This document shows positions 18,957 to 43,747 of a stretch of 64,000 nt of DNA, piece after piece. Below the pieces are notes generated by a model, which was not told where the DNA came from, made no database searches, and was given only the letters and a program-made list of their open reading frames with translations. Each line of letters begins with the position of its first letter. Positions within the stretch are counted from its first letter, which is position 1. Source of the stretch: an uncultured Bacillota bacterium (GTDB taxonomy: Bacteria; Bacillota_I; Bacilli_A; RF39; UBA660); the NCBI GenBank assembly GCA_946617625.1, contig CAMOKF010000001.1, positions 22,064 through 86,063 on the forward strand, given 5' to 3'. The translations under genes and the position numbers were made by a program.

Positions 18957-20117
18957 CTAAATAATTTTACTTAAACTATAAAATTTATCTTTACTATATT
19001 TAGCCAACTTTATATTATTTGGATTACATTGATTTATATAAATAATGTCATTATTATATAGTTGTTTACTACTAAATGCATTTTTTATTTGTTTTGATAT
19101 ATATCTTATAAAATTAACTGGAACACCTTGAGCAATACATTGAATAATTGGTGTTTTACATCTAGGTGTAAACTTAAAATCATTTGGATAACCCATCAAA
19201 GCAGCATACTCTCTTACGTAAAAATCTCTATTTTCTATTGGATGTATTATTTTAACGACAGACGCTAATGATGGAGCTCTATCATTTAATTTTGGTCTAT
19301 ATGGAGACTTGTCCCATATATTTTTATTATTATTAATCTTATCTTTAATTTTTATAATATCTTTTTTAACACTATCTGATAAATCTAAATCATCTAGATG
19401 TTCTACCTTAGATAATGCTACATATAAGCTCTCCTTTTCTTCTACCTTATCATAAAACTTAAACAACGATTCATCAGATTGTTCTGTAAAATTGCAATCA
19501 GTAGAAGAATAATCTATATTATTTAATACATTTTCTATATTGCAACGTTTACTATCTTGAACTATTTTAGGAATACCTGAAAAATTATCTCTGTTCCAAC
19601 CTATTATAAAAGTTCTACGTCTATGCATTGCAACATTATGATTACCGGCAATATCATTAATGATAGTAAATCTATAATTAGATAATAATTTTATCATATC
19701 TTTTAATATGGGCAAACCAGTAGTAGTCAATGTTGGAGCATTCTCTATTAAAAATGCTTTTGGATTAATTCTGTCTACCATTTTAAAAACATTATATAAA
19801 TATTTATTTACATCATTATCTACTTTAGCATTTCTATTTATAGAAGAAAGTCCTGAACAAGGTGGATTTGAAAATAGTAAATCGTAGTTTTCATCTTTTA
19901 ATTCATTTAAATAAGATTCATTATTTTCATATTCACTTGGAAGCTTTACTTCTATTTCTGGATAGTTTAACTTAAAATAGTGTGCATTTTGTTCTAACAT
20001 ATCATCGGTCATTTCAAGAATAGTATTTACATCCCATCCTTCTAGTAAATGACCTATAGTTTGACTTCCAGAAAATATATACATACCAATAGCTTTCATA
20101 ATTAGTCTCCTATGCAC
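18957..20117 (-). CDS. DNA (cytosine-5)-methyltransferase-like protein
   Basis: Motif I-like IFSGSQTIGH, motif IV FSNPPCSGLSSIN (Pro-Cys catalytic dipeptide), ENAP (motif VI ENV-like). Confidence 0.6.
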   Translation of the reverse strand: MHRRLIMKAIGMYIFSGSQTIGHLLEGWDVNTILEMTDDMLEQNAHYFKLNYPEIEVKLPSEYENNESYLNELKDENYDLLFSNPPCSGLSSINRNAKVDNDVNKYLYNVFKMVDRINPKAFLIENAPTLTTTGLPILKDMIKLLSNYRFTIINDIAGNHNVAMHRRRTFIIGWNRDNFSGIPKIVQDSKRCNIENVLNNIDYSSTDCNFTEQSDESLFKFYDKVEEKESLYVALSKVEHLDDLDLSDSVKKDIIKIKDKINNNKNIWDKSPYRPKLNDRAPSLASVVKIIHPIENRDFYVREYAALMGYPNDFKFTPRCKTPIIQCIAQGVPVNFIRYISKQIKNAFSSKQLYNNDIIYINQCNPNNIKLAKYSKDKFYSLSKII

Positions 20118-21370
20118 ATATTATATAGCTTTTTCATCATAATATCTCTATCAAAGACAGATTTATAATAATTATAAGCGTTATTTCTATACTCATCGTA
20201 TAAATCCATATTAGAATTAAGCTCATTCATAAGATTAAGTGTTTCTAAAGGATTATTTTCATCATACACAATTGTACCAATATCTTTTAGAGTATAATTA
20301 TCTAGTCTATCTCCACAGAAATTAGCACTATCATACAAATCTTTTCTAATAATTGGAATTGTACCACAAGCTACTATTTCTAATAAAGTTATTTCTAACT
20401 GTCCACCAAACTGTGGTCCAGTAAAAGTGAAAAACATACCAAATTTTGCTTTACTCAATCTCTCTAAAGCTTCTAATCTTACATATGGTCCATATATTTC
20501 CAAAGGATGATTACGATAATTTTCTATATTTTCTAAAACATCTTTTGGATTACCATTATCATTATAATTATTATCTTTTCTTAAGTCACCATATTTATTA
20601 GTTTTAGAATCATATTCCCATATAGCTTGCTTAGCATTTATAGAACGTTCAATTCCTTCAGCCACTGAAACATAATTATTATTCATAAGATATTCATAAT
20701 GAAATTCTCTAAAATACGTCCAACCCTTCCATAAAGCGGAACGTCCAATGAACCAACAAGTCTTATCTATCTTATCATTTGTCCAAAATCTATTTCTTAA
20801 ATCTTCGAAGTCTGTAGATATTAATTGTAACTGTTCTATTTTATAATTAGGTTTATCATTAATTAATGGTTTATTAATTAATGGCTTTACTTTTTTATTT
20901 ATAAACTTAGTACAAAAATCTGCTTGTTTATGATGAACAATAATTTTATCTAGAATACTAAAAAATCTCTTTATATAAGAACTATCTAAACAATAAAAAT
21001 TGCGATTAATGCTATGAATCTTATTATCTACTTGAAGATATACTAATTTTGTCCCATTATTATGCATATTTTCTAAAGTCAATAGAAAATTTTCAATAGT
21101 TTCTTCTGGATAATTTTTAGCTGGAACAGACATTATAATACATATATCTGGATTAAAACCAATTTTAGTATCTTCTAATAAACCTTCTTTAATAAAAGAA
21201 TGTTCCACAAAATCAGTTTCTTGCATATTTTTTCTACCCCAAGATTTGTCAGTTCCAGTAATAGTAATTACATTATTATTAATAGATTTTATATATTCTT
21301 CTAATTCAATAGTAATTCTAGTATTACCAGTACCTTCTGTACCTCTGGCTAATAGTAATAAAACGTTCAT
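20102..21370 (-). CDS. GT-B-fold glycosyltransferase (GT4-like)
   Basis: C-terminal FGMFFTFTGPQFGGQLEITLLEIVACGTIPII resembles the E-x7-E donor-binding motif region of GT4 enzymes. Confidence 0.5.
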   Translation of the reverse strand: MNVLLLLARGTEGTGNTRITIELEEYIKSINNNVITITGTDKSWGRKNMQETDFVEHSFIKEGLLEDTKIGFNPDICIIMSVPAKNYPEETIENFLLTLENMHNNGTKLVYLQVDNKIHSINRNFYCLDSSYIKRFFSILDKIIVHHKQADFCTKFINKKVKPLINKPLINDKPNYKIEQLQLISTDFEDLRNRFWTNDKIDKTCWFIGRSALWKGWTYFREFHYEYLMNNNYVSVAEGIERSINAKQAIWEYDSKTNKYGDLRKDNNYNDNGNPKDVLENIENYRNHPLEIYGPYVRLEALERLSKAKFGMFFTFTGPQFGGQLEITLLEIVACGTIPIIRKDLYDSANFCGDRLDNYTLKDIGTIVYDENNPLETLNLMNELNSNMDLYDEYRNNAYNYYKSVFDRDIMMKKLYNMCIGD

Positions 21371-21381
21371 AAATTAATTCC

Positions 21382-21612
21382 TTAGTCATTACTTTCTTTA
21401 AACTCTGGCATCTCTGTTCTAGGTCCAACATTAATGCTTATACTAAAATTGTTTACTCTGTAATTATTGCTACTTCCTTCTAGTGTTGATTGCATATTAA
21501 TATCAGTCTCAATTTCATCGTAATCTTCTAAATTTCTTAAGTTAGCATCCAATTCTTTTTTAAACTTTTTAATAATTACATCTTTATATCTCTTAATATC
21601 ATCTTTATTCAT
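21382..21612 (-). CDS. hypothetical protein
   Basis: ORF in minus-strand array. Confidence 0.4.
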   Translation of the reverse strand: MNKDDIKRYKDVIIKKFKKELDANLRNLEDYDEIETDINMQSTLEGSSNNYRVNNFSISINVGPRTEMPEFKESND

Positions 21613-21614
21613 CT

Positions 21615-22928
21615 TTAATTCTCCTTTATTATTTCTAATTCTATTAATTTATTTTTAAAATCTTTTTTAGATATAAATAAATCATCTACATAATTAACTA
21701 AAGCTGTTCTATATAAAAGTAATTTTTTAATGTTTAACACTTCATTACTTGATTCTAATGTACCATATGCAATATCTTTAAAAAATTGAATATCCTTATC
21801 ATATATATGTAGTGACATTGCATAATGATTATATGTTCCTACGTCTACATCTAACAATTCTGCTATATACTTTTGCAATGAAATGAAAAATCCTAAATCA
21901 TTAAGTACGCCATATCTCAAATCATTGCTACGCATAATTGTTGTACTATGTAATTTTTTATTTCTTATTTGATAGTTTAAACATATTGTACAAGGTTCAT
22001 CTTTAGTCTCTATTACTTTTTTATTAGGTATATTAATGTTTATAATAGCTCTTCTTGAATATGGGTCTTTTTTAAGCAATTCTACTATTTTTTCTATTTG
22101 ATTAAATCCATATTTTTGCTGTATTAAATACCCATAAGCCGAATTTGCAGTTAATCCATCATCTGAAACCTTTTCCCATAAACTAGCAAACTTACTAATA
22201 AATTTCAAATCATTTCTAGATGACCAATACCATAATAATTCTGCTGCTAAATATGTTAAATTAGTACCACCAGATTTCAAAGAAACATATTCATTATCTA
22301 AATCTGAAATAGAAAAACTATAATTACATAACTCTAAAGTGTGTCCTCTAGTATTTCTAGTTTCCATTGGATGTCCATTTTCTAAAACATCTCTGGCAAC
22401 TTGTCTATAAACAATGTTAGTAGTAGTTTTTCCATAATGACTATCTATCCAAGAATCTAACTTATCATAAGCATTATCTTCAGCTATATCGATAATATAA
22501 AAATTCTTATAATTATATTTATCTTTAAAATCCTTAGCTAATTTAGTAAAATGCTTATTTTGTGCTTCCATTATTGGAATAAAGCTATCTTCTCCACGTT
22601 CTTTGAGTCTTTTATTTATAATACTCATATCACTACTTATAAATACTATAAATAAATCATTATTATCTATAATTCTTTTGTTGATAGTTTCATATTCTTG
22701 AATACTTAACTTACAATCTCTATTATAAATAATTGGATATATCATTTCTCCAAAATGAAATCTTTCTAAAACTACATTATTTTGATAATCTAGTAAATTT
22801 ATATGATAGCCAAAATCATTTCTAGTTTTAGATGTAGAGTTAATTATAGACATATTATATTTAATTTTTAATTTATTCGATAATGTTGTTTTACCAGCTG
22901 CATCTAAACCTTCTAATATAATATTCAT
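21615..22928 (-). CDS. fusion: P-loop dNMP kinase domain + thymidylate-synthase/dNMP-hydroxymethylase-family domain
   Basis: N-term MNIILEGLDAAGKTTL (dNMP/thymidylate-kinase P-loop); C-term aligns with ThyA: ELLWYW, DPYSRRAIININ (RRIIVSAWN), DEPCTICLNYQI (catalytic PC), TIMRSNDLRYGVLNDLGF (QLYQRSCDVFLGLPFNI), SLHIY (THLY). Confidence 0.75.
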   Translation of the reverse strand: MNIILEGLDAAGKTTLSNKLKIKYNMSIINSTSKTRNDFGYHINLLDYQNNVVLERFHFGEMIYPIIYNRDCKLSIQEYETINKRIIDNNDLFIVFISSDMSIINKRLKERGEDSFIPIMEAQNKHFTKLAKDFKDKYNYKNFYIIDIAEDNAYDKLDSWIDSHYGKTTTNIVYRQVARDVLENGHPMETRNTRGHTLELCNYSFSISDLDNEYVSLKSGGTNLTYLAAELLWYWSSRNDLKFISKFASLWEKVSDDGLTANSAYGYLIQQKYGFNQIEKIVELLKKDPYSRRAIININIPNKKVIETKDEPCTICLNYQIRNKKLHSTTIMRSNDLRYGVLNDLGFFISLQKYIAELLDVDVGTYNHYAMSLHIYDKDIQFFKDIAYGTLESSNEVLNIKKLLLYRTALVNYVDDLFISKKDFKNKLIELEIIKEN

Positions 22929-22940
22929 ATGTAATTACTC

Positions 22941-23861
22941 CTATATCTTCATATACCAATTCTTCATAAAATCGCAATCACAGTTTAATGGTAAATCAAT
23001 TAAATCTGATGGAGCAGTTCTCATTAGATAAGATAATCTTTCTGCAACTTCTTTTTGATTTTCTTCAGGACACTCAACTATAACTTCATCGTGAACTTGA
23101 ATTATTAAATGCGCATCTAGTCTATTTAACTCTTCATCATTATTTATTTTAATCATAGCGAGCTTAGTCATATCGGCCGCGCTCCCTTGCACTCGCGAAT
23201 TAACACATTGTCTCTCTGCTTGTGATATAAATCCTGTATTATCTTTAATAACTATTCCATCATTTTTTCTTACATCTTGTATAAATTGATTTTTATTCTG
23301 CCAACCATAAATACTATTAAGTTCTTTAATATATGAATTCTTAATATTTATAGGTACCTCATTTGTATCTAAAGAAAAGTTTAATGGGTCAAATATTCTT
23401 GAATTTCCAGATAAATATTTAAAAGAGTATGGCTCTAATTGCATATCTGAAATGTGTCTTCGTCTTCCCCAAGCTGTAGTAACATACCCTTTCTCTTTAG
23501 CCATCTCTTGACTAGCTTCAATAAAATCTGCTAATTGTGGAAAAGCTCTTAACACAGCATCATATATCTCTTGAGCTTCTTTATTAGAAACATTTAATTG
23601 TTCAGCAATAGATGGAATCTGTCTTCCATAAAGAATACCTAATACAATACTCTTTGCCTGTGTTCTTCTTTCTTTACCTTCCACATTAGTTGAACCATCT
23701 TCATTGAACTCTAAGCATTCTTCATAACTTTTATGAAATGCTAAACTTGAAATAGTTGAATAAATATCTCTTCCATCGATAAATGCTTGCATCATCTTTT
23801 TATCTTGAGATAGATAAGAAGTAATCATTGGCTCCTGTTGTGACCTAAGAATAGTCAGCAC
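22941..23861 (-). CDS. family-A DNA polymerase, C-terminal part (motifs B and C); GTG start as drawn lacks motif A
   Basis: ITSYLSQDKKMMQAFIDGRDIY = PolI IMAHLSRDKGLLTAFAEGKDIH; motif B RTQAKSIVLGILYG; QGSAAD; motif C IQVHDEVIVE. Confidence 0.85.
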   Translation of the reverse strand: MLTILRSQQEPMITSYLSQDKKMMQAFIDGRDIYSTISSLAFHKSYEECLEFNEDGSTNVEGKERRTQAKSIVLGILYGRQIPSIAEQLNVSNKEAQEIYDAVLRAFPQLADFIEASQEMAKEKGYVTTAWGRRRHISDMQLEPYSFKYLSGNSRIFDPLNFSLDTNEVPINIKNSYIKELNSIYGWQNKNQFIQDVRKNDGIVIKDNTGFISQAERQCVNSRVQGSAADMTKLAMIKINNDEELNRLDAHLIIQVHDEVIVECPEENQKEVAERLSYLMRTAPSDLIDLPLNCDCDFMKNWYMKI

Positions 23862-23901
23862 CCACCATCACATATCTAGTTCTTGTTGCTAACTTTTTCA
23901 A
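23845..23901 (-). other. out-of-frame mini-ORF encoding polymerase motif A strand (TTG-KKLATRTRYVMVGADYS-TAG) with its own SD
   Basis: Minus strand AAAAGGGGGTGATAATAT-TTG...AGA TAT GTG ATG GTG GGT GCT GAC TAT TCT TAG; VMVGADYS = PolI VIVSADYS / T7 VLVGADAS; frame is -1 relative to 22941..23861. Confidence 0.4.
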
Positions 23902-23906
23902 TATTA

Positions 23907-24593
23907 TCACCCCCTTTTCCTATACCACTTTGGATATGTATATCTATTTCTTTTATAAGTATAATAACCTTGTTCTACACTTTGCTTAATTTTTCTTTGA
24001 TATACACACTCTGTTTTAGTATCAAATGGATTATCTATTTCTTTCCACCACTTCCAAGCATCTCTGTATGAATGAAATTCTAATTTTTCGCCTGTTTCCA
24101 TTATGCAATAACAACTTATTGACCTAGTATCACCAGTACCAAAATTATGGTTTCCTTTCATACTATTCGACAATCTTGCTCGGTGCTCATCAGTAAATAA
24201 TTCACCTAAAGCGGCTTTTCTCTTCATAGTTTCAGATATTTTCTTTCTTGTCTCTTCACTTCGCATACGTTTTTTATGTTTATCTCTAACATATGGTATG
24301 TCCATAACATTATTATCTCCGCCATCTACCATATTATAACCACTATTTATACTATCAAACTTATGTATGTAATAATTTTCTAGCTCATTTAATGTATCTT
24401 TATCTTCAGCAAAGCATATAACTTCCCAACTAAAATTATCTTCTCCATATTTTCTTATAGCACAATGAAATTGAACCTTACTACCATTTTTTGCGTCTCT
24501 AAGATGTCCTCTTTTTCTATCTAGTAATTTACGTCTTGTCTGTCCAATATACACTTTACCATTTATATTATTAGTAACCTTATATATTAACAA
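23907..24593 (-). CDS. GIY-YIG homing endonuclease (free-standing, inside polymerase gene)
   Basis: N-terminal IYKVTNNINGKVYIGQTRR...R..GH (GIY-YIG core), own SD GGAGGTG and TTG start. Confidence 0.85.
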   Translation of the reverse strand: MLIYKVTNNINGKVYIGQTRRKLLDRKRGHLRDAKNGSKVQFHCAIRKYGEDNFSWEVICFAEDKDTLNELENYYIHKFDSINSGYNMVDGGDNNVMDIPYVRDKHKKRMRSEETRKKISETMKRKAALGELFTDEHRARLSNSMKGNHNFGTGDTRSISCYCIMETGEKLEFHSYRDAWKWWKEIDNPFDTKTECVYQRKIKQSVEQGYYTYKRNRYTYPKWYRKRG

Positions 24594-24608
24594 ATAGTCA
24601 CCTCCAAT

Positions 24609-26126
24609 TTAATAATAAATTAATATATTATTATTGTCAGTAAGATTAACGATATTGGTGATAATAATCTCAAACTTGGCGTCGTTTTCGCTAACTAATA
24701 ATTTATCACCAACCACAAGATTACTAACGTATTTCCAGCCATCCGGCGTTTCAACCTCACTCCATTTTTTGACACAGAATGAATTATTAGACTCTTCTAC
24801 TATATCATCACTAGAATATGCTTTAAACATCGTTCTTATCTCTTTATTATGAGATGGAATATTCTGCATATTCGGGTCACTAGAACTAAATCTTCCTGTC
24901 TTAGCACCATATTGATTATAATTACAATGTATTCTACCATCATCATAAATAATTTCAGGCATCTTATCTATGTATGTAGACAACAATTTATCCGTTCCTC
25001 GTATATTTAAAATAGCCTCACATAAGTCTTTTTCTATATTATTTTGTGCAAAATGTTTAAGAATTTCTTCACCAGTACCTCTTGGAGATTTTTTAACTGG
25101 ACTTTCTAATTTTAAAATATCATAGAACAATATTGCAAGTTGTGTTGGACTTCCAATATTAATTGGGTCATTTAGTTTATGATTAGGATTATGTAGTTTA
25201 TATTGACTTATTTTTGAGTCATATTTATTTAGTATATTATTTATGACATCTGTCTGTTCTTCTCTAATTTTGTGATATTTATCTTTTAATTTATCACAAA
25301 CATCTAAATCAAGACAAACGCCTCTGTCTTCCATATCAGCACAAACATTTATAATAGGCATCTCAATATTTTTAAATACATTATATGGACCTTCCATATT
25401 ACTTTTTTCTAAAATATTCTTTTGATACTCATACAGCTCAAATGTTTTTATTGCATCTCCAGCTGCATATAAATATGCTGATGATATAGGAACTAAATCA
25501 AATGATACACCATTAAATAATTTATCAAATGTTAATGATTCTTTATCTAAACTATTACAATATTTTAAATGTAAATCTTTAAGTCCGTGTTTTTCGTTCT
25601 CGTTTATACAAAAACCAGCTAACATTGTATCCCAATAACATTCTAAATATAAATTCATAGTATGTCTTAATATTCTAATATCAAATTTAGCATTATGCAT
25701 AATCCATTTTCCATTGAATTTTTCTAATTCTAATTTAACATCATCAATATTTAACTGTGAATTTATTTTTTGACCAGTTATATACGATTTATGACCTATT
25801 GGAACATAAGCTGGTTTTTTGTTTGGAGTATAAAGACAAACACCAACTAAATCATCTCGCATAGTGTCTAATCCAGTAGTTTCTGTATCAATTGCACAAA
25901 TATTATTTTTAATAGCTTTCGAGATATATTCGCACAAATCATCTATGTTTTGAATTATTAGATATTTATCTTTATACTTACCAAGTTTATTTTCAGCACT
26001 AGAAACAATCTCCTGTATTTTAGCAGCAATATTATTAGTTCTTACGCTTTTAGGCTTAGCAGATTTAACTTTATTTAATAATTCCTTATCTGAAACTTTA
26101 GGTTTTTCAAATAAACCTCTCGCCAT
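24609..26126 (-). CDS. family-A DNA polymerase, N-terminal part (3'-5' exonuclease + first half of polymerase domain); last 55 codons Hint-like/intervening sequence
   Basis: Exo I ICAIDTETTGLD; pol region IIYDDGRIHCNYNQYGAKTGRFSSSDPNMQNIPSHNKEIRTMFKA = PolI [48 protein letters not shown]; homology stops at about residue 436. Confidence 0.9.
   Translation of the reverse strand: MARGLFEKPKVSDKELLNKVKSAKPKSVRTNNIAAKIQEIVSSAENKLGKYKDKYLIIQNIDDLCEYISKAIKNNICAIDTETTGLDTMRDDLVGVCLYTPNKKPAYVPIGHKSYITGQKINSQLNIDDVKLELEKFNGKWIMHNAKFDIRILRHTMNLYLECYWDTMLAGFCINENEKHGLKDLHLKYCNSLDKESLTFDKLFNGVSFDLVPISSAYLYAAGDAIKTFELYEYQKNILEKSNMEGPYNVFKNIEMPIINVCADMEDRGVCLDLDVCDKLKDKYHKIREEQTDVINNILNKYDSKISQYKLHNPNHKLNDPINIGSPTQLAILFYDILKLESPVKKSPRGTGEEILKHFAQNNIEKDLCEAILNIRGTDKLLSTYIDKMPEIIYDDGRIHCNYNQYGAKTGRFSSSDPNMQNIPSHNKEIRTMFKAYSSDDIVEESNNSFCVKKWSEVETPDGWKYVSNLVVGDKLLVSENDAKFEIIITNIVNLTDNNNILIYY

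Positions 26127-38430: not shown

Positions 38431-38431
<1 letters not shown>
38403..38431 (-). promoter_or_regulatory. sigma-A-type promoter with TTTACA-N3-TGTAAA palindrome
   Basis: Minus strand TTTACAAATTGTAAATTATATATTATAAT; -35 abuts the GroEL stop codon. Confidence 0.55.
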
Positions 38432-40062
<1,631 letters not shown>

Positions 40063-40066
40063 TTAA

Positions 40067-40330
40067 TTATTTAATAATAGCAAGTATGTCATCTTCTTTT
40101 AAAATGACATAATGTTCTGCGTCAAGATGTATTTCTACACCAACATTAGTTGAATAAACAACTTTATTATCTACTGAAACATATTTAACATTTTTACCTA
40201 TTTCAAGAACTTTACCTTGATTAGAGTTCTCTTTTTGTTTTGTTGTTAAAATAATTCCAGATTTAGTTGTGTCTTCTTCAAATCTTAATTTTTGCACTAC
40301 TACTCTATTATCTGTAGGTACTATCTGCAT
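40067..40330 (-). CDS. groES: GroES co-chaperonin (Cpn10)
   Basis: 87 aa; VVQKL..EEDTTKSGIIL...GKVLEIG...HYVILKEDDILAII parallels GroES RVVIE...KTASGIVL...GKIVAVG...EYLILRESDILAVI. Confidence 0.8.
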   Translation of the reverse strand: MQIVPTDNRVVVQKLRFEEDTTKSGIILTTKQKENSNQGKVLEIGKNVKYVSVDNKVVYSTNVGVEIHLDAEHYVILKEDDILAIIK

Positions 40331-41209: not shown

Positions 41210-41360
41210 CTTTATCCTTCCACATTCTTTTTGTTATTTTATTTCCTATATTCGAGATTACTTTACAAATACCTACAATTATTACAATTATAATTAGTAT
41301 AGCAAGTAATCCATATAATATAATATCTTCTATTGTATATATTAAAACACTATTTATCAT
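41181..41360 (-). CDS. hypothetical small membrane protein
   Basis: Internal ATG (MINSVLIYT...) chosen to avoid 80-nt overlap; hydrophobic core LLAILIIIVIIVGI. Confidence 0.35.
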   Translation of the reverse strand: MINSVLIYTIEDIILYGLLAILIIIVIIVGICKVISNIGNKITKRMWKDKDENKKDRTI

Positions 41361-41748
41361 CTTTTTTCTCCTTTTCTTCCCAATAAACTTTTTCCATCTC
41401 TTTATACTTATCTCTATAAAAAGAATCAAAGTCTTTTAGTATTGATTCTAGTCTAGCTCTTAAATCTGTATAGGCCTGTTGTTTAACTTTATATTCAATA
41501 CTTTCATATGGATTTAAAGATAAATTTGGTCTGAAATCATCTGGCATAATATTAAGAATAAGTTTATCTGATATTTCACTCATTACTTCATAAACATCAT
41601 TAATTTCCTTAAATATACTATTAATTAGTTTAGATAATAAATCGTGACCGTATTTTTGTACAACTAAAGCATCTATCTCTCCCCATAAATCCATATGCTG
41701 AAGTAATAATTGTTTTTTAAGTTCATATTCAAAATTTTCAGAAATCAT
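41350..41748 (-). CDS. hypothetical protein
   Basis: ORF in minus-strand array. Confidence 0.45.
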   Translation of the reverse strand: MISENFEYELKKQLLLQHMDLWGEIDALVVQKYGHDLLSKLINSIFKEINDVYEVMSEISDKLILNIMPDDFRPNLSLNPYESIEYKVKQQAYTDLRARLESILKDFDSFYRDKYKEMEKVYWEEKEKKDDK

Positions 41749-41751
41749 ATG

Positions 41752-42759
41752 TTACTCCTTGTTTAGTTCAGACAATAACGCATTACCACAAGTTATTCTA
41801 TCTTCATCTTCTTCTTTTGACGGTACGAAAACAATAACATCCCAACCGTCTTTAACTAACGGTTGTTCAAATTTTTCATATACATCATAATCTGTTACTA
41901 TTTCATAATCATTTTCAACAGCTGTATGTGTTTCGTGAATAGGAGTGATTTTGACAATACATTTTTCTTTGTCAAAATATTTATTCATTAAATCTACATC
42001 TAAATTAGATTCTGATGTAACAGCAAAATTTAATGTGTATTTTCTACCTTTTGGAACAGGAAGTGAATCAATAATATTTCCTATAGATTCTAATGACATT
42101 GATTTATTATTGAACATCTTATTTCTTTGTTCTTCATCTAAAGTATTTATAGAAAATTGTAAACCAACTCCACCATTCCATAATTTGTTTCCTAGTTTAT
42201 CCTCGTCACATTTAATCCACTCTTCTATAAAGTGTACAAAATCAACATAATTTTTAGGACACATTGTTGATACTACAGGATGATATTCATCGAAATCTAT
42301 AATTTTGAAACCATCACAGAGTTCTCTAGAATTTAAACATCCTATGTATCTTGCAGTTGTTATGACATCTTTATTTAGTGTAGGTTCTCCCATTCTTGCA
42401 AAATGAACATTAAGTCTTTTGCCCTTTTTTATTTCCGATAGAGCGATTGCTGAAACTATTTCATCTACCATTTCAGATTCACTCGCATTACCCTTAAATT
42501 CTAATTTAGGACAATCACAGAAATTACAACTCATAGGACAACCTTTTTGAGATGATACTGTTACAACTAATTTTTCAGTTAAATCAACATCTGTATGCTC
42601 TACTTTATCTATTCGTTTTGTATATCCAAGAAAATCAGCTTTTATATTATTTTCTTTTCCATAATCTCCAACATATAAATATTCAAGATGTTTATCTACA
42701 TCACTAATTATCTTACCTGTTCTAGTTTCTGTTATTTTCTTCATCATATTCTCCTTCAA
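41752..42759 (-). CDS. radical SAM enzyme, RlmN/Cfr-like signature
   Basis: VSSQKGCPMSCNFCDC (RlmN VSSQVGCALECKFCST; CxxxCxxC) and C-terminal ITCGNAL (RlmN AACGQLA). Confidence 0.7.
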   Translation of the reverse strand: MKENMMKKITETRTGKIISDVDKHLEYLYVGDYGKENNIKADFLGYTKRIDKVEHTDVDLTEKLVVTVSSQKGCPMSCNFCDCPKLEFKGNASESEMVDEIVSAIALSEIKKGKRLNVHFARMGEPTLNKDVITTARYIGCLNSRELCDGFKIIDFDEYHPVVSTMCPKNYVDFVHFIEEWIKCDEDKLGNKLWNGGVGLQFSINTLDEEQRNKMFNNKSMSLESIGNIIDSLPVPKGRKYTLNFAVTSESNLDVDLMNKYFDKEKCIVKITPIHETHTAVENDYEIVTDYDVYEKFEQPLVKDGWDVIVFVPSKEEDEDRITCGNALLSELNKE

Positions 42760-42761
42760 TA

Positions 42762-43409
42762 TTAATCTGTATAATCCTCATCTCCATCATATTCATCTTC
42801 ATATGGTGTTTCACTTTGTCTATACATTAAGTGTTCACACCAATTATGACTATTTTCATCTGACCAAGATGGCCTCTCATATAATTGACTATAAGGTTTA
42901 GGGTCATTTAATATAATTTCATCAAATAACTTAACTGTACACTCTTCATTATAACCTTCTTCGACAGTCAGATGTTTACCTTTTGGTGTTATAATATTAT
43001 TTCCATATATTCTTACGAATATATCTGTTATACCGATTCGTTTAACTAATCTACATAACCATTTCTGAAATTCTTTATTAGTTTCATATACAGTTCTATC
43101 TCTAAAATTACCTGTAAGTACAATATGGTAAATACATTTTGATTCAAAATCATCGAAATATCCTGTTCCTAAATTACTATGATTTCTGTATTCATCTGTA
43201 TTACTACTCATTGAATGTGTATGTTCTGGAATAATGTCTACAAACATATCTTCTTCAGAACCCGTTACTTTAGGTAAATGATTCAATACTTGTTTTAATA
43301 TATACTCTTTCTCATTATCACATCTTCCAAATGGATACACAGTGACAATTCCTTTAATGTAGCTCCATTTACTCATAATTATTCTCCTTCTTCTGAAATA
43401 TATTGCCAT
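42762..43409 (-). CDS. hypothetical protein
   Basis: ORF immediately downstream of radical-SAM gene. Confidence 0.45.
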   Translation of the reverse strand: MAIYFRRRRIIMSKWSYIKGIVTVYPFGRCDNEKEYILKQVLNHLPKVTGSEEDMFVDIIPEHTHSMSSNTDEYRNHSNLGTGYFDDFESKCIYHIVLTGNFRDRTVYETNKEFQKWLCRLVKRIGITDIFVRIYGNNIITPKGKHLTVEEGYNEECTVKLFDEIILNDPKPYSQLYERPSWSDENSHNWCEHLMYRQSETPYEDEYDGDEDYTD

Positions 43410-43747
43410 TTAATAATTTCAGTTAAAACATTATTATCATAATTAGCATTAACATTATACTCAATAAATTTATTGTCTGTGTAGTATGCAAGAAAGCAGC
43501 AATCATTTTTGTCAACAACAACTACAAATGAATCATCGTTTGGAAATCCATTATTATTTTCTGTGTACTTCCATTTGTATTCATTCTCTACTGTATCTAA
43601 AGAACCTATAATCATTTGTAAATAAAATTGTACCTCATAAGCAGGTACATCTTTACCTTCTTGCGCTAATTTCATATAATCTTTTTGTCTTTTTTGTATA
43701 TTTTCTTTAAGTATTTTAAGTTCTGACATCTTACTCTCCTTAACCAT
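43379..43747 (-). CDS. hypothetical protein
   Basis: ORF in minus-strand array. Confidence 0.45.
   Translation of the reverse strand: MVKESKMSELKILKENIQKRQKDYMKLAQEGKDVPAYEVQFYLQMIIGSLDTVENEYKWKYTENNNGFPNDDSFVVVVDKNDCCFLAYYTDNKFIEYNVNANYDNNVLTEIIKWQYISEEGE

What the first reader, a model, noticed from the sequence alone, without database searches (positions are those of the whole stretch)
41752..42759. Radical-SAM enzyme with RlmN/Cfr-like signature in a phage
VSSQKGCPMSCNFCDC reproduces the RlmN/Cfr cluster VSSQVGCxxxCxFC, and ITCGNAL near the C-terminus resembles the methyl-carrier Cys loop (AACGQL). The upstream Cys equivalent to RlmN C118 is Thr, however. An RlmN/Cfr-type enzyme methylates A2503 of 23S rRNA or A37 of tRNA. 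A phage copy could retune host translation, or be repurposed for nucleic-acid modification together with the two uncharacterised ORFs immediately downstream (42762..43747).
Basis: partly seen in the sequence, partly recalled or inferred. Interest (0 to 1): 0.55.

Follow-up and report, generated by a model that had tools for sequence, protein, structure and literature searches.

The report
Phage RlmN-like radical-SAM enzyme, repurposed
This phage gene encodes a radical-SAM enzyme descended from the RlmN/Cfr RNA methylases that has lost two features those enzymes need to methylate RNA, and its close relatives in other genomes often sit inside NAD (vitamin B3) salvage operons, so it more likely works on a small molecule than on the ribosome.

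Summary
A 335-aa ORF lies on the minus strand at 41752..42759. It carries VSSQKGCPMSCNFCDC and a C-terminal ITCGNAL, and Thr67 replaces RlmN Cys118.

RlmN/Cfr are the nearest relatives by sequence profile (E 7e-25) and by fold (top 10 PDB hits). However, the protein scores 50 bits against RlmN's cut-off of 290. It lacks the N-terminal RlmN domain. The resolving Cys118 is Thr in its whole clade (389 sequences with the Thr + CGN signature). It keeps the Fe-S cysteines, the GEP motif and the Cys355 equivalent (Cys324), so it is probably an active enzyme.

The family is very large: more than 7,000 homologues, mostly from gut metagenomes, on viral contigs of 4.3-225 kb. PHROGs lists it as phrog_24834, function unknown.

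The two flanking ORFs are upstream, not downstream, and occur in none of 247 other loci apart from a contig of the same phage.

Same-clade relatives (41-67% identical) lie within 2 kb of NAD-salvage genes in 11 of 130 lineages, often inside complete operons. Other relatives are fused to an ECF transporter component plus MTA/SAH nucleosidase, or abut an FMN reductase.

Best reading: a small-molecule radical-SAM enzyme tied to NAD/niacin salvage. Its substrate is unknown, and this window contains no NAD genes.

The parts
41752..42759 (-). Radical-SAM gene of the RlmN/Cfr lineage (335 aa from TTG; probable true start is Met6 at 42744, giving 330 aa)
   Evidence: ORF list. P0001 is 100% identical at 330 aa. 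phrog_24834 matches full length at 267 bits. AlphaFold model pLDDT 92.1, nearest fold RlmN.
42511..42558 (-). VSSQKGCPMSCNFCDC: [4Fe-4S]/SAM cluster motif (Cys74, Cys78, Cys81) in its RlmN-type context
   Evidence: Cys74 and Cys81 are invariant and Cys78 invariant or nearly so across the family alignments. Aligned with RlmN Cys125/129/132.
42559..42561 (-). Thr67, the position of RlmN Cys118 (the resolving cysteine), not a Cys
   Evidence: Alignment with E. coli RlmN. 389 clade members combine Thr here with the CGN tail; Cys occurs only in the distant, more RlmN-like phage clade.
41776..41796 (-). ITCGNAL loop; Cys324 is equivalent to RlmN Cys355 (the methyl-carrier Cys)
   Evidence: Cys324 is invariant or nearly so. 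The HMM alignment places the family's CGQ/CGN motif on RlmN AACGQL.
42637..42738 (-). N-terminal extension (residues 8-41), predicted as beta-strands and conserved in the clade (LEYLYVGDYGK.NNIKADFLG); it takes the place of the RlmN N-terminal domain
   Evidence: DSSP on the model. A gap of about 55 residues relative to E. coli RlmN. The profile covers only RlmN residues 81-376.

Best explanation
The gene encodes a catalytically competent radical-SAM enzyme that branched from the class-A RlmN/Cfr methylases and is no longer an rRNA/tRNA adenine methyltransferase.

Shown: it keeps the Fe-S/SAM site and the mobile C-terminal cysteine (Cys324, equivalent to RlmN Cys355). It has replaced the RlmN N-terminal domain with a short beta-strand extension. 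It has Thr where RlmN has the resolving Cys118.

Inferred: it acts on a small molecule connected with NAD/niacin salvage. A phage would carry it as an auxiliary metabolic or counter-defence gene that helps keep NAD+ available during infection. Cys324 would act either as a methyl carrier or as a hydrogen-atom donor. Electrons would come from a flavodoxin-like or FMN-reductase partner, or from the host's own system. The substrate and the reaction are not known.
For: Descent from RlmN/Cfr:
- Family profile against PDB: RlmN E 6.8e-25, Cfr E 1.7e-21, next enzyme 1e-3.
- Foldseek top 10 hits are all RlmN, E 7.6e-11 to 5e-8, on a model with pLDDT 92.

Probably active:
- The cluster cysteines, the GEP motif and Cys324 are invariant or nearly so.
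- There are more than 7,000 homologues.
- An FMN_red gene abuts the gene in 18 loci.
- One relative is fused to a bona fide MTA/SAH nucleosidase (228 bits against a cut-off of 169), the enzyme that removes SAH and 5'-deoxyadenosine.

Small-molecule substrate:
- Four relatives are fused behind an ECF-type transporter S component.

NAD link, within the same Thr/CGN clade at 41-67% identity to the window protein:
- Gene orders seen include NAPRTase - PncA-like - rSAM - NadE - DUF5662 - NUDIX/NrtR, with intergenic gaps of 6 and 12 bp.
- Other orders add NMNAT, CinA/PncC and NAD kinase.
- These occur in Alphaproteobacteria, Firmicutes, Patescibacteria and DPANN archaea, and on IMG/VR viral contigs.
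- NAD genes lie within 2 kb in 11 of 130 dereplicated lineages and within the fetched flank in 18 of 130.
- rSAM-isochorismatase fusions exist.
- A more RlmN-like phage clade sits directly after Prs-like and NAMPT-like genes in Vibrio phages.
Against: - The window itself holds no NAD-salvage gene among its ORFs of 100 aa or more across 64 kb.
- Most lineages (about 86%) show no NAD gene in the fetched flanks.
- No formal background control for neighbour frequency was run.
- DNA methyltransferases (24 of 130 lineages) and RNA-repair genes Thg1 and RlaP (13 of 130) are also recurrent neighbours.
- Some 'cellular' MAG contigs could be mis-binned phage.
- No known NAD-salvage step needs radical chemistry.
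- None of the papers read or searched mentions a radical-SAM partner for NARP1-3 or for NAD salvage.
- The transporter domain's best Pfam match is QueT (37-40 bits, cut-off 33.7), which points to queuosine precursors, not niacin.
Confidence: 0.45

Rival explanations
1. It is still an RNA adenine C-methyltransferase (tRNA A37 or 23S A2503, or a phage or host tRNA) that uses a different residue in place of Cys118. On this reading it retunes translation or protects tRNAs from host anticodon nucleases.
For: The nearest family by sequence and fold is RlmN/Cfr, and the Cys355 equivalent is kept. Distant phage homologues sit inside the tRNA gene cluster of T5-like Stenotrophomonas phages. Thg1 and RlaP RNA-repair genes recur nearby. 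The window carries a tRNA-Gln(UUG) with A at position 37.
Against: Cys118 is Thr in the whole clade and no second conserved Cys exists. To my knowledge, C118A RlmN stalls as a covalent RNA adduct; the PDB entry titles 5hr6/5hr7 say as much. The RlmN N-terminal domain is absent. The protein scores 50 bits against a cut-off of 290. The phage homologues found in tRNA clusters belong to a different clade that does keep Cys118. The protein is acidic (net charge -17), but this is weak evidence because E. coli RlmN is itself at -1.
Confidence: 0.12
2. It is a queuine-lyase-like enzyme (QueL-type) that salvages a 7-deazapurine precursor such as preQ1 from queuine, for tRNA or for phage DNA modification.
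For: Relatives at 37-38% identity are fused to a QueT-family transporter domain (Pfam 37-40 bits, above the cut-off) and a nucleosidase. This resembles the C. difficile queK-qrtT-queL operon. QueL is a radical-SAM enzyme common in gut bacteria.
Against: QueL (UniProt Q186P0) is catalogued under InterPro IPR006638, the Elp3/MiaB/NifB type, which is not the RlmN class. The fused nucleosidase is MtnN, a generic by-product scavenger, and not QueK. No preQ1 riboswitch lies upstream of the fused genes. NCBIfam finds no QueT match. Pfam finds no TGT/DpdA or queuosine gene among the window's ORFs of 100 aa or more, and none of the neighbour families identified in the other loci is one. The QueL sequence itself could not be obtained, so the direct comparison was not made.
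Confidence: 0.1
3. It modifies DNA or deoxynucleotides, for example C-methylation of adenine, as part of the phage's DNA-modification repertoire.
For: C5 and N6/N4 DNA methyltransferase genes lie within 300 bp in 9 of 130 lineages and within the flank in 24 of 130. This phage has a DNA hypermodification-like cassette: thymidylate-synthase-like/kinase fusion, alpha-glucosyltransferase and C5-methylase-like gene.
Against: The window's modification cassette is about 20 kb away. Several of the methyltransferase-adjacent loci belong to a single phage lineage, and I did not measure how often methyltransferases occur in phage genomes generally. Operon embedding in cellular NAD clusters and the transporter fusions do not fit a DNA substrate.
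Confidence: 0.08

Closest known systems
RlmN (TIGR00048; E. coli b2517; PDB 3RFA, 5HR7), the dual-specificity 23S rRNA A2503 / tRNA A37 C2-methyltransferase
   Same: Same radical-SAM core fold. Same VSSQxGCxxxCxFC cluster context. Same GEPxxN motif. Same C-terminal CG(Q/N) loop cysteine aligned to Cys355.
   Different: About 16-20% identity. 50 bits against a cut-off of 290. No N-terminal RlmN domain, replaced by a beta-strand extension of about 35 residues. Thr instead of Cys118. 'ARMGEP' instead of 'MGMGEP'. Genomic contexts are NAD salvage, transporter fusion or phage accessory regions, not the rlmN housekeeping locus.
Cfr (NF000424 / TIGR04432; PDB 9P0P), the 23S rRNA A2503 C8-methyltransferase that confers resistance to several antibiotic classes
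   Same: Same class-A lineage: profile E 1.7e-21 across the core, including the C-terminal Cys.
   Different: 27-28 bits against cut-offs of 530-550. The Cys118-equivalent position, a Cys in E. coli RlmN and (as far as I know) also in Cfr, is Thr here. There is no evidence for ribosome targeting, so a resistance phenotype is not expected.
Short RlmN-like proteins of cultured phages (Vibrio phage PS17B-2 gp170, Stenotrophomonas phages BUCTxx99 and ANB28, Pseudomonas phage 201phi2-1)
   Same: Phage-encoded, about 300 aa, lacking the RlmN N-terminal domain. Some lie next to NAD+ reconstitution-type genes (Prs-like + NAMPT-like).
   Different: Only 23-27% identical to the window protein. They keep Cys118 and GGCGQL and score 115-122 bits on the RlmN model, so they may still be methyltransferases. 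The window clade has Thr67 and TCGN.
Phage NAD+ reconstitution pathways NARP1, NARP2 and NARP3 (Adps/Namat; Nampt/Nmnat; PnuC/NadR)
   Same: Phage-borne NAD+ supply genes. Relatives of this gene are neighbours of Nampt-, NAPRTase-, PncA-, NadE- and Nmnat-type genes.
   Different: No radical-SAM component has been described for any NARP. This window contains none of those genes.
QueL queuine lyase (C. difficile CD1684, UniProt Q186P0)
   Same: A radical-SAM enzyme of gut bacteria that acts on an imported small molecule, encoded next to an ECF S component and a nucleoside hydrolase.
   Different: Catalogued under a different radical-SAM signature (IPR006638). No queuosine genes or preQ1 riboswitch were found around this family. 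Direct comparison was not possible.

Membership tests
RlmN/Cfr class-A radical-SAM RNA methyltransferases | CxxxCxxC cluster within the VSSQxGC context | tested here: met
   VSSQKGCPMSCNFC, residues 68-81, aligned to RlmN Cys125/129/132
RlmN/Cfr class-A radical-SAM RNA methyltransferases | Score at or above the curated cut-off of the family models (TIGR00048 290 bits; Cfr models 468-550 bits) | tested here: not met
   49.9 bits on TIGR00048, covering residues 51-136 only; 26-28 bits on the Cfr models
RlmN/Cfr class-A radical-SAM RNA methyltransferases | C-terminal loop cysteine (RlmN Cys355) that carries the methyl group | tested here: met
   Cys324 in ITCGNAL aligns with AACGQL and is invariant or nearly so in the family
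RlmN/Cfr class-A radical-SAM RNA methyltransferases | Second catalytic cysteine (RlmN Cys118) that resolves the enzyme-substrate adduct | tested here: not met
   Thr67. 389 clade sequences combine Thr with the CGN tail. No other conserved Cys exists
RlmN/Cfr class-A radical-SAM RNA methyltransferases | N-terminal accessory domain (the RlmN_N region, roughly residues 1-80 of E. coli RlmN) | tested here: not met
   About 55 residues of RlmN have no counterpart. The profile covers RlmN residues 81-376 only. The model's N-terminus is beta-strand
RlmN/Cfr class-A radical-SAM RNA methyltransferases | RlmN-type core fold | tested here: met
   The Foldseek top 10 PDB hits are all RlmN, TM 0.55-0.62; the next fold is PFL-activating enzyme at E 2.5e-5
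RlmN/Cfr class-A radical-SAM RNA methyltransferases | Methylation of A2503 in 23S rRNA or A37 in tRNA | not testable with these tools
   Needs primer extension or LC-MS after expression in an rlmN-deleted host
PHROG phrog_24834 (phage protein family of unknown function) | Full-length match to the family profile | tested here: met
   E 3.4e-79, 267 bits, residues 7-330 against profile positions 5-323 of 336
QueL queuine lyase | Homology to C. difficile CD1684 (Q186P0; InterPro IPR006638) | not tested
   The sequence was not obtainable with these tools. Only the InterPro label is known, and it is not the RlmN class
QueL queuine lyase | Genomic link to queuosine salvage (QueK, QrtT/QueT, preQ1 riboswitch, TGT) | tested here: inconclusive
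   QueT-like fusion in 4 relatives. But no preQ1 riboswitch, no NCBIfam QueT match, and no queuosine or TGT gene in the window or among the neighbour families identified in the 248 loci
Phage NAD+ reconstitution modules (NARP-type) | Co-located NAD+ salvage or reconstitution genes in the same genome | tested here: not met
   None among the window's ORFs of 100 aa or more. Present near same-clade relatives in 11-18 of 130 lineages. The rest of this phage genome was not seen

The most novel reading that the evidence does not exclude
This clade is a previously unrecognised kind of class-A radical-SAM enzyme that works on a pyridine or adenine nucleotide metabolite, not on RNA. One possibility is that it frees nicotinate or nicotinamide from an N-methylated vitamer abundant in the gut (trigonelline or 1-methylnicotinamide). 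In that scheme the methyl group passes to Cys324 and is then removed after hydrogen abstraction by the 5'-deoxyadenosyl radical, a route that needs no Cys118. Another possibility is that it alters NAD+ or ADP-ribose so that host NAD-degrading defence enzymes cannot deplete it. Either way it would be an unreported accessory to phage and symbiont NAD+ supply, carried by thousands of gut phages.
Probability: 0.2. Interest if true: 0.85.

Novelty: new variant of a known kind. Interest (0 to 1): 0.6.

Why it matters
- Databases label this abundant gut-phage protein either as 'unknown' (PHROGs) or as '23S rRNA (adenine2503-C2)-methyltransferase' (JGI automatic names). The second label is probably wrong, and it could suggest an antibiotic-resistance risk (Cfr-like) that the sequence does not support.
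- The clade offers a natural experiment in RlmN/Cfr chemistry, because the methyl-carrier cysteine is kept and the resolving cysteine is lost.
- Its repeated embedding in NAD(P) salvage operons of reduced-genome symbionts, and next to phage NAD+ genes, suggests an undescribed radical step in NAD or niacin metabolism. It could also be a new element in the phage-host contest over NAD+. Both ideas are directly testable with a single recombinant protein.

Tried and rejected
- Near-identical phage genomes: a megablast of 36-48 kb against 50,697 phage records found nothing.
- Conserved operon with the two flanking ORFs: rejected. Homologues of 42762-43409, 43379-43747 and 41350-41748 occur only in L001, a contig of the same phage.
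- Riboswitch test of the substrate: no preQ1 or NAD+ riboswitch was found in 12 NAD-cluster loci or upstream of the transporter-fused genes. This was uninformative.
- Obtaining QueL: the Yuan et al. 2019 paper is not held, and the scans did not return the C. difficile locus. Only its UniProt and InterPro identifiers were found.
- Reading the PNP_UDP_1 fusion as a queuosine nucleosidase: rejected. It is a bona fide MTA/SAH nucleosidase.
- Net charge as evidence against RNA binding: weak, because E. coli RlmN is itself near neutral.
- Two encoding-contig look-ups with my own ORF starts found nothing.
- Literature searches for a radical-SAM enzyme linked to phage RlmN, NARP or NAD salvage found nothing relevant.

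Full report
**1. The observation**

The window has about 27% G+C, and almost every ORF is on the minus strand. The ORF at 41752..42759 is on the minus strand and encodes 335 aa from a TTG start. An identical 330-aa product starting at Met6 is on record on contigs of up to 136 kb. VSSQKGCPMSCNFCDC is residues 68-83 and ITCGNAL is residues 322-328.

In a MAFFT alignment with E. coli RlmN:
- Cys74/78/81 align with RlmN Cys125/129/132.
- Cys324 aligns with Cys355.
- Thr67 aligns with Cys118.

The ORFs at 42762..43747 are upstream of a minus-strand gene, not downstream.

**2. How close it is to RlmN/Cfr**

With the single sequence:
- The best NCBIfam model is RlmN (TIGR00048), at 49.9 bits against a cut-off of 290 and covering residues 51-136 only. 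The Cfr models give 26-28 bits.
- Pfam Radical_SAM is just below threshold, at 27.5 bits against 29.5.
- The only full-length match is phrog_24834, of unknown function (267 bits).

With a 26-sequence family profile against PDB sequences:
- RlmN scores E 6.8e-25 and Cfr E 1.7e-21 across the whole core, including the C-terminal CGQ motif.
- The next radical-SAM enzyme is at E 1e-3.

An AlphaFold model built on 48 sequences has pLDDT 92.1 and pTM 0.91. Its ten best PDB matches are all RlmN (E 7.6e-11 to 5e-8, TM 0.55-0.62). PFL-activating enzyme follows at 2.5e-5.

The family is therefore a true but distant sister of the class-A methylases.

**3. What it has lost and kept**

- The profile covers only RlmN residues 81-376.
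- About 55 residues of the RlmN N-terminus have no counterpart.
- The model's first 40 residues are beta-strands. They form a clade-specific conserved motif, LEYLYVGDYGK.NNIKADFLG.
- Only four cysteines are conserved: the three cluster ligands and Cys324.
- Across 472 collected sequences, 389 combine Thr at the Cys118 position with a C-terminal CGN. A bacterial sub-clade has Ile, Asn or Met there with CGQ. Only a distant phage sub-clade has Cys there with CGQ.
- That last group includes the Vibrio-phage and Stenotrophomonas-phage proteins. They score 115-122 bits on the RlmN model over the full core.

From established knowledge of RlmN, Cys355 carries the methyl group and Cys118 is needed to release the methylated base. 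The titles of PDB entries 5HR6 and 5HR7 ('C118A RlmN with cross-linked tRNA') illustrate the consequence of losing it. A clade-wide Thr at that position, together with the missing N-terminal domain, argues against canonical A2503/A37 methylation.

**4. Distribution**

- A word-indexed search gave 7,272 proteins with E <= 0.001, capped at 8,000 candidates. Most come from gut metagenomes, and some carry the JGI automatic name '23S rRNA (adenine2503-C2)-methyltransferase'.
- An exhaustive HMMER search of 1.84 billion cluster representatives gave only 776 hits, so this is a compact clade separate from bulk RlmN.
- The 79 closest genome loci (39-68% identity) come from Treponema, Clostridia, Alphaproteobacteria, Bacteroidales, Patescibacteria, and Methanobrevibacter and Nanoarchaeota MAGs.
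- The 80 closest IMG/VR loci (55-71% identity) lie on viral contigs of 4.3-225 kb.
- Among cultured phages, Bacteroides phage Versailles has a 43%-identical copy.

**5. Neighbours**

I called ORFs in 248 loci, clustered them by BLASTP and identified the recurrent clusters with Pfam. There is no universal partner. The window's own flanking ORFs recur only in a contig of the same phage.

*Recurrent partners*

(a) NAD(P) salvage.
- In Alphaproteobacteria MAGs the order is NAPRTase - nicotinamidase-like isochorismatase - rSAM - NAD synthase - DUF5662 - NUDIX/NrtR, with 6-bp and 12-bp gaps around the rSAM.
- In a Firmicutes MAG, an unclassified bacterium and a Patescibacteria MAG the order is rearranged. 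NMNAT and NAD kinase are added in all three, and CinA/PncC in the first two.
- In DPANN archaea the order is rSAM - NMNAT - NUDIX/NrtR, and one such locus lies next to a 16S rRNA gene.
- NAD genes also occur near the gene on IMG/VR contigs (L213, L234-L237).
- After dereplicating the rSAM at 90% identity, NAD genes lie within 2 kb in 11 of 130 lineages and within the fetched flank in 18 of 130.
- All these members carry the Thr/ARMGEP/TCGN signature and are 41-67% identical to the window protein.

(b) An FMN_red flavoprotein gene abuts the rSAM in 18 loci (5 lineages).

(c) DNA methyltransferases occur in 24 of 130 lineages.

(d) The RNA-repair genes Thg1 and RlaP occur in 13 of 130 lineages.

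(e) Band_7 occurs in 7 of 130 lineages.

*Fusion proteins*
- ECF S component (best Pfam match QueT, 37-40 bits) + rSAM + bona fide MTA/SAH nucleosidase, in Bacilli MAGs.
- S component + rSAM.
- rSAM + isochorismatase, in Elusimicrobiota.

In Vibrio phages, the Cys118-containing cousin follows Prs-like and NAMPT-like genes directly.

**6. The window itself**

Pfam on the 77 other ORFs of 100 aa or more found the following:
- Replication and recombination genes: Pol A, clamp loader, RecA, DnaB, primase and SbcCD.
- Nucleotide metabolism genes.
- A probable DNA-hypermodification cassette.
- GroES/GroEL and an SNF2 helicase.

It found no NAD-salvage gene, no TGT/DpdA and no flavodoxin. The gene sits among small ORFs of unknown function. 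The NAD link is therefore inferred from same-clade relatives and is not seen in this phage.

**7. The queuine-lyase idea**

The QueT + rSAM + nucleosidase fusion recalled the C. difficile queK-qrtT-queL operon. Several results weaken the idea:
- QueL (Q186P0) is catalogued under IPR006638, which is not the RlmN class.
- The fused nucleosidase is MtnN.
- No preQ1 riboswitch precedes the fused genes.
- No queuosine gene was found in the window or among the neighbour families identified.

The QueL sequence could not be retrieved, so the direct test remains open.

**8. Mechanism, and what is shown versus inferred**

Shown:
- Descent from RlmN/Cfr.
- An intact cluster and SAM site.
- A conserved Cys324.
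- Loss of Cys118 and of the N-terminal domain.
- Recurrent operon-level association with NAD(P) salvage.
- Fusion to a vitamin-type transporter component and to the scavenger of SAH and 5'-deoxyadenosine.
- An adjacent flavoprotein gene in some phages.

Inferred:
- The substrate is an imported or salvaged small molecule related to NAD or niacin.
- Cys324 is either a methyl carrier or a hydrogen donor.
- In phages the gene supports the NAD+ supply, possibly against NAD-depleting defences.

One chemically economical scheme is demethylation of an N-methylpyridinium vitamer through S-methyl-Cys324, which would need no Cys118. This is speculation.

None of the NARP1, NARP2 or NARP3 papers read mentions a radical-SAM component. 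No paper in the library links radical SAM with NAD salvage.

**9. Caveats**

- ORFs in the loci were called mechanically.
- Neighbour families depend on a BLASTP threshold of 1e-5.
- Many loci come from a few samples, which is why I dereplicated.
- Some MAG contigs may be phage.
- No matched background frequency was computed. The only yardstick is the published genome-wide figure of about 4.3% of phages carrying NARP1 (PMC13464706).

**10. Verdict**

The motif observation is right. Calling the protein 'RlmN/Cfr-like' is right as ancestry and wrong as function. The likeliest role is a small-molecule radical-SAM reaction connected to NAD or niacin salvage (confidence 0.45). Canonical RNA methylation is unlikely (about 0.12). 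This is a new variant of a known enzyme class, abundant in gut phages, and it can be tested with a single recombinant protein.

Noticed in passing
window 18957-22928 (-): A probable DNA-hypermodification cassette. 21615-22928 is a thymidylate-kinase-like + thymidylate-synthase-like fusion (437 aa). 20102-21370 is a DNA alpha-glucosyltransferase (AGT, 87 bits). 18957-20117 is a C5 cytosine-methylase-like gene. dCMP deaminase, dUTPase and a dCTP-deaminase-like gene lie elsewhere in 496-32080. This suggests glucosylated hydroxymethyl-pyrimidine DNA.
   Followed up: partly
window 22941-26126 (-): The family-A DNA polymerase is split into two ORFs: 24609-26126 (exonuclease plus the N-terminal part of the polymerase domain) and 22941-23861 (the C-terminal part). 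A GIY-YIG/NUMOD3 homing-endonuclease ORF at 23907-24593 lies between them.
   Followed up: partly
window 38431-40330 (-): A phage-encoded chaperonin pair, GroEL (539 aa, 38431-40050) and GroES (87 aa, 40067-40330), lies about 1.4 kb downstream of the radical-SAM gene.
   Followed up: no
window 1093-1163 (-): A single tRNA gene, tRNA-Gln(UUG), with A at position 37. As I recall, E. coli tRNA-Gln is an RlmN substrate, but this is weak circumstantial evidence.
   Followed up: partly
L172 2131-5822 (Vibrio phage PS17B-2, OZ196882.1) and sister phages: A short RlmN-like protein that keeps both catalytic cysteines lies directly after a PRPP-synthetase-like gene and a NAMPT-like gene. That pair is annotated the way NARP1 (Adps/Namat) genes usually are. 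No NARP paper read mentions this third gene.
   Followed up: partly
L007 and L008 (Stenotrophomonas phages BUCTxx99 and ANB28), locus positions 3881-4840: The Cys118-containing short RlmN-like gene sits inside the phage tRNA gene cluster. In BUCTxx99 it is annotated 'prohibitin family protein', which looks like a mis-annotation.
   Followed up: partly
L109, L111, L114, L115, L117, L118, L121, L142, L043, L053 and others: An FMN_red-family flavoprotein gene of about 199 aa overlaps or abuts the 3' end of the radical-SAM gene in 18 loci. It is a likely dedicated electron donor.
   Followed up: partly
L170 10001-12445 (Bacilli MAG, MCQ2753177.1): An 814-aa triple fusion of an ECF S-component-like membrane domain, the radical-SAM domain and MTA/SAH nucleosidase. 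It stands alone among housekeeping genes and is annotated only as a nucleosidase.
   Followed up: partly
L002-L004, about 1 kb upstream to immediately downstream of the gene: In gut phages of about 55-190 kb the gene is flanked by a Thg1-like gene (tRNA-His guanylyltransferase family), a P22 antirepressor-like gene and a Band_7/SPFH gene. NUDIX and NMNAT-like genes lie 2-6 kb away.
   Followed up: partly
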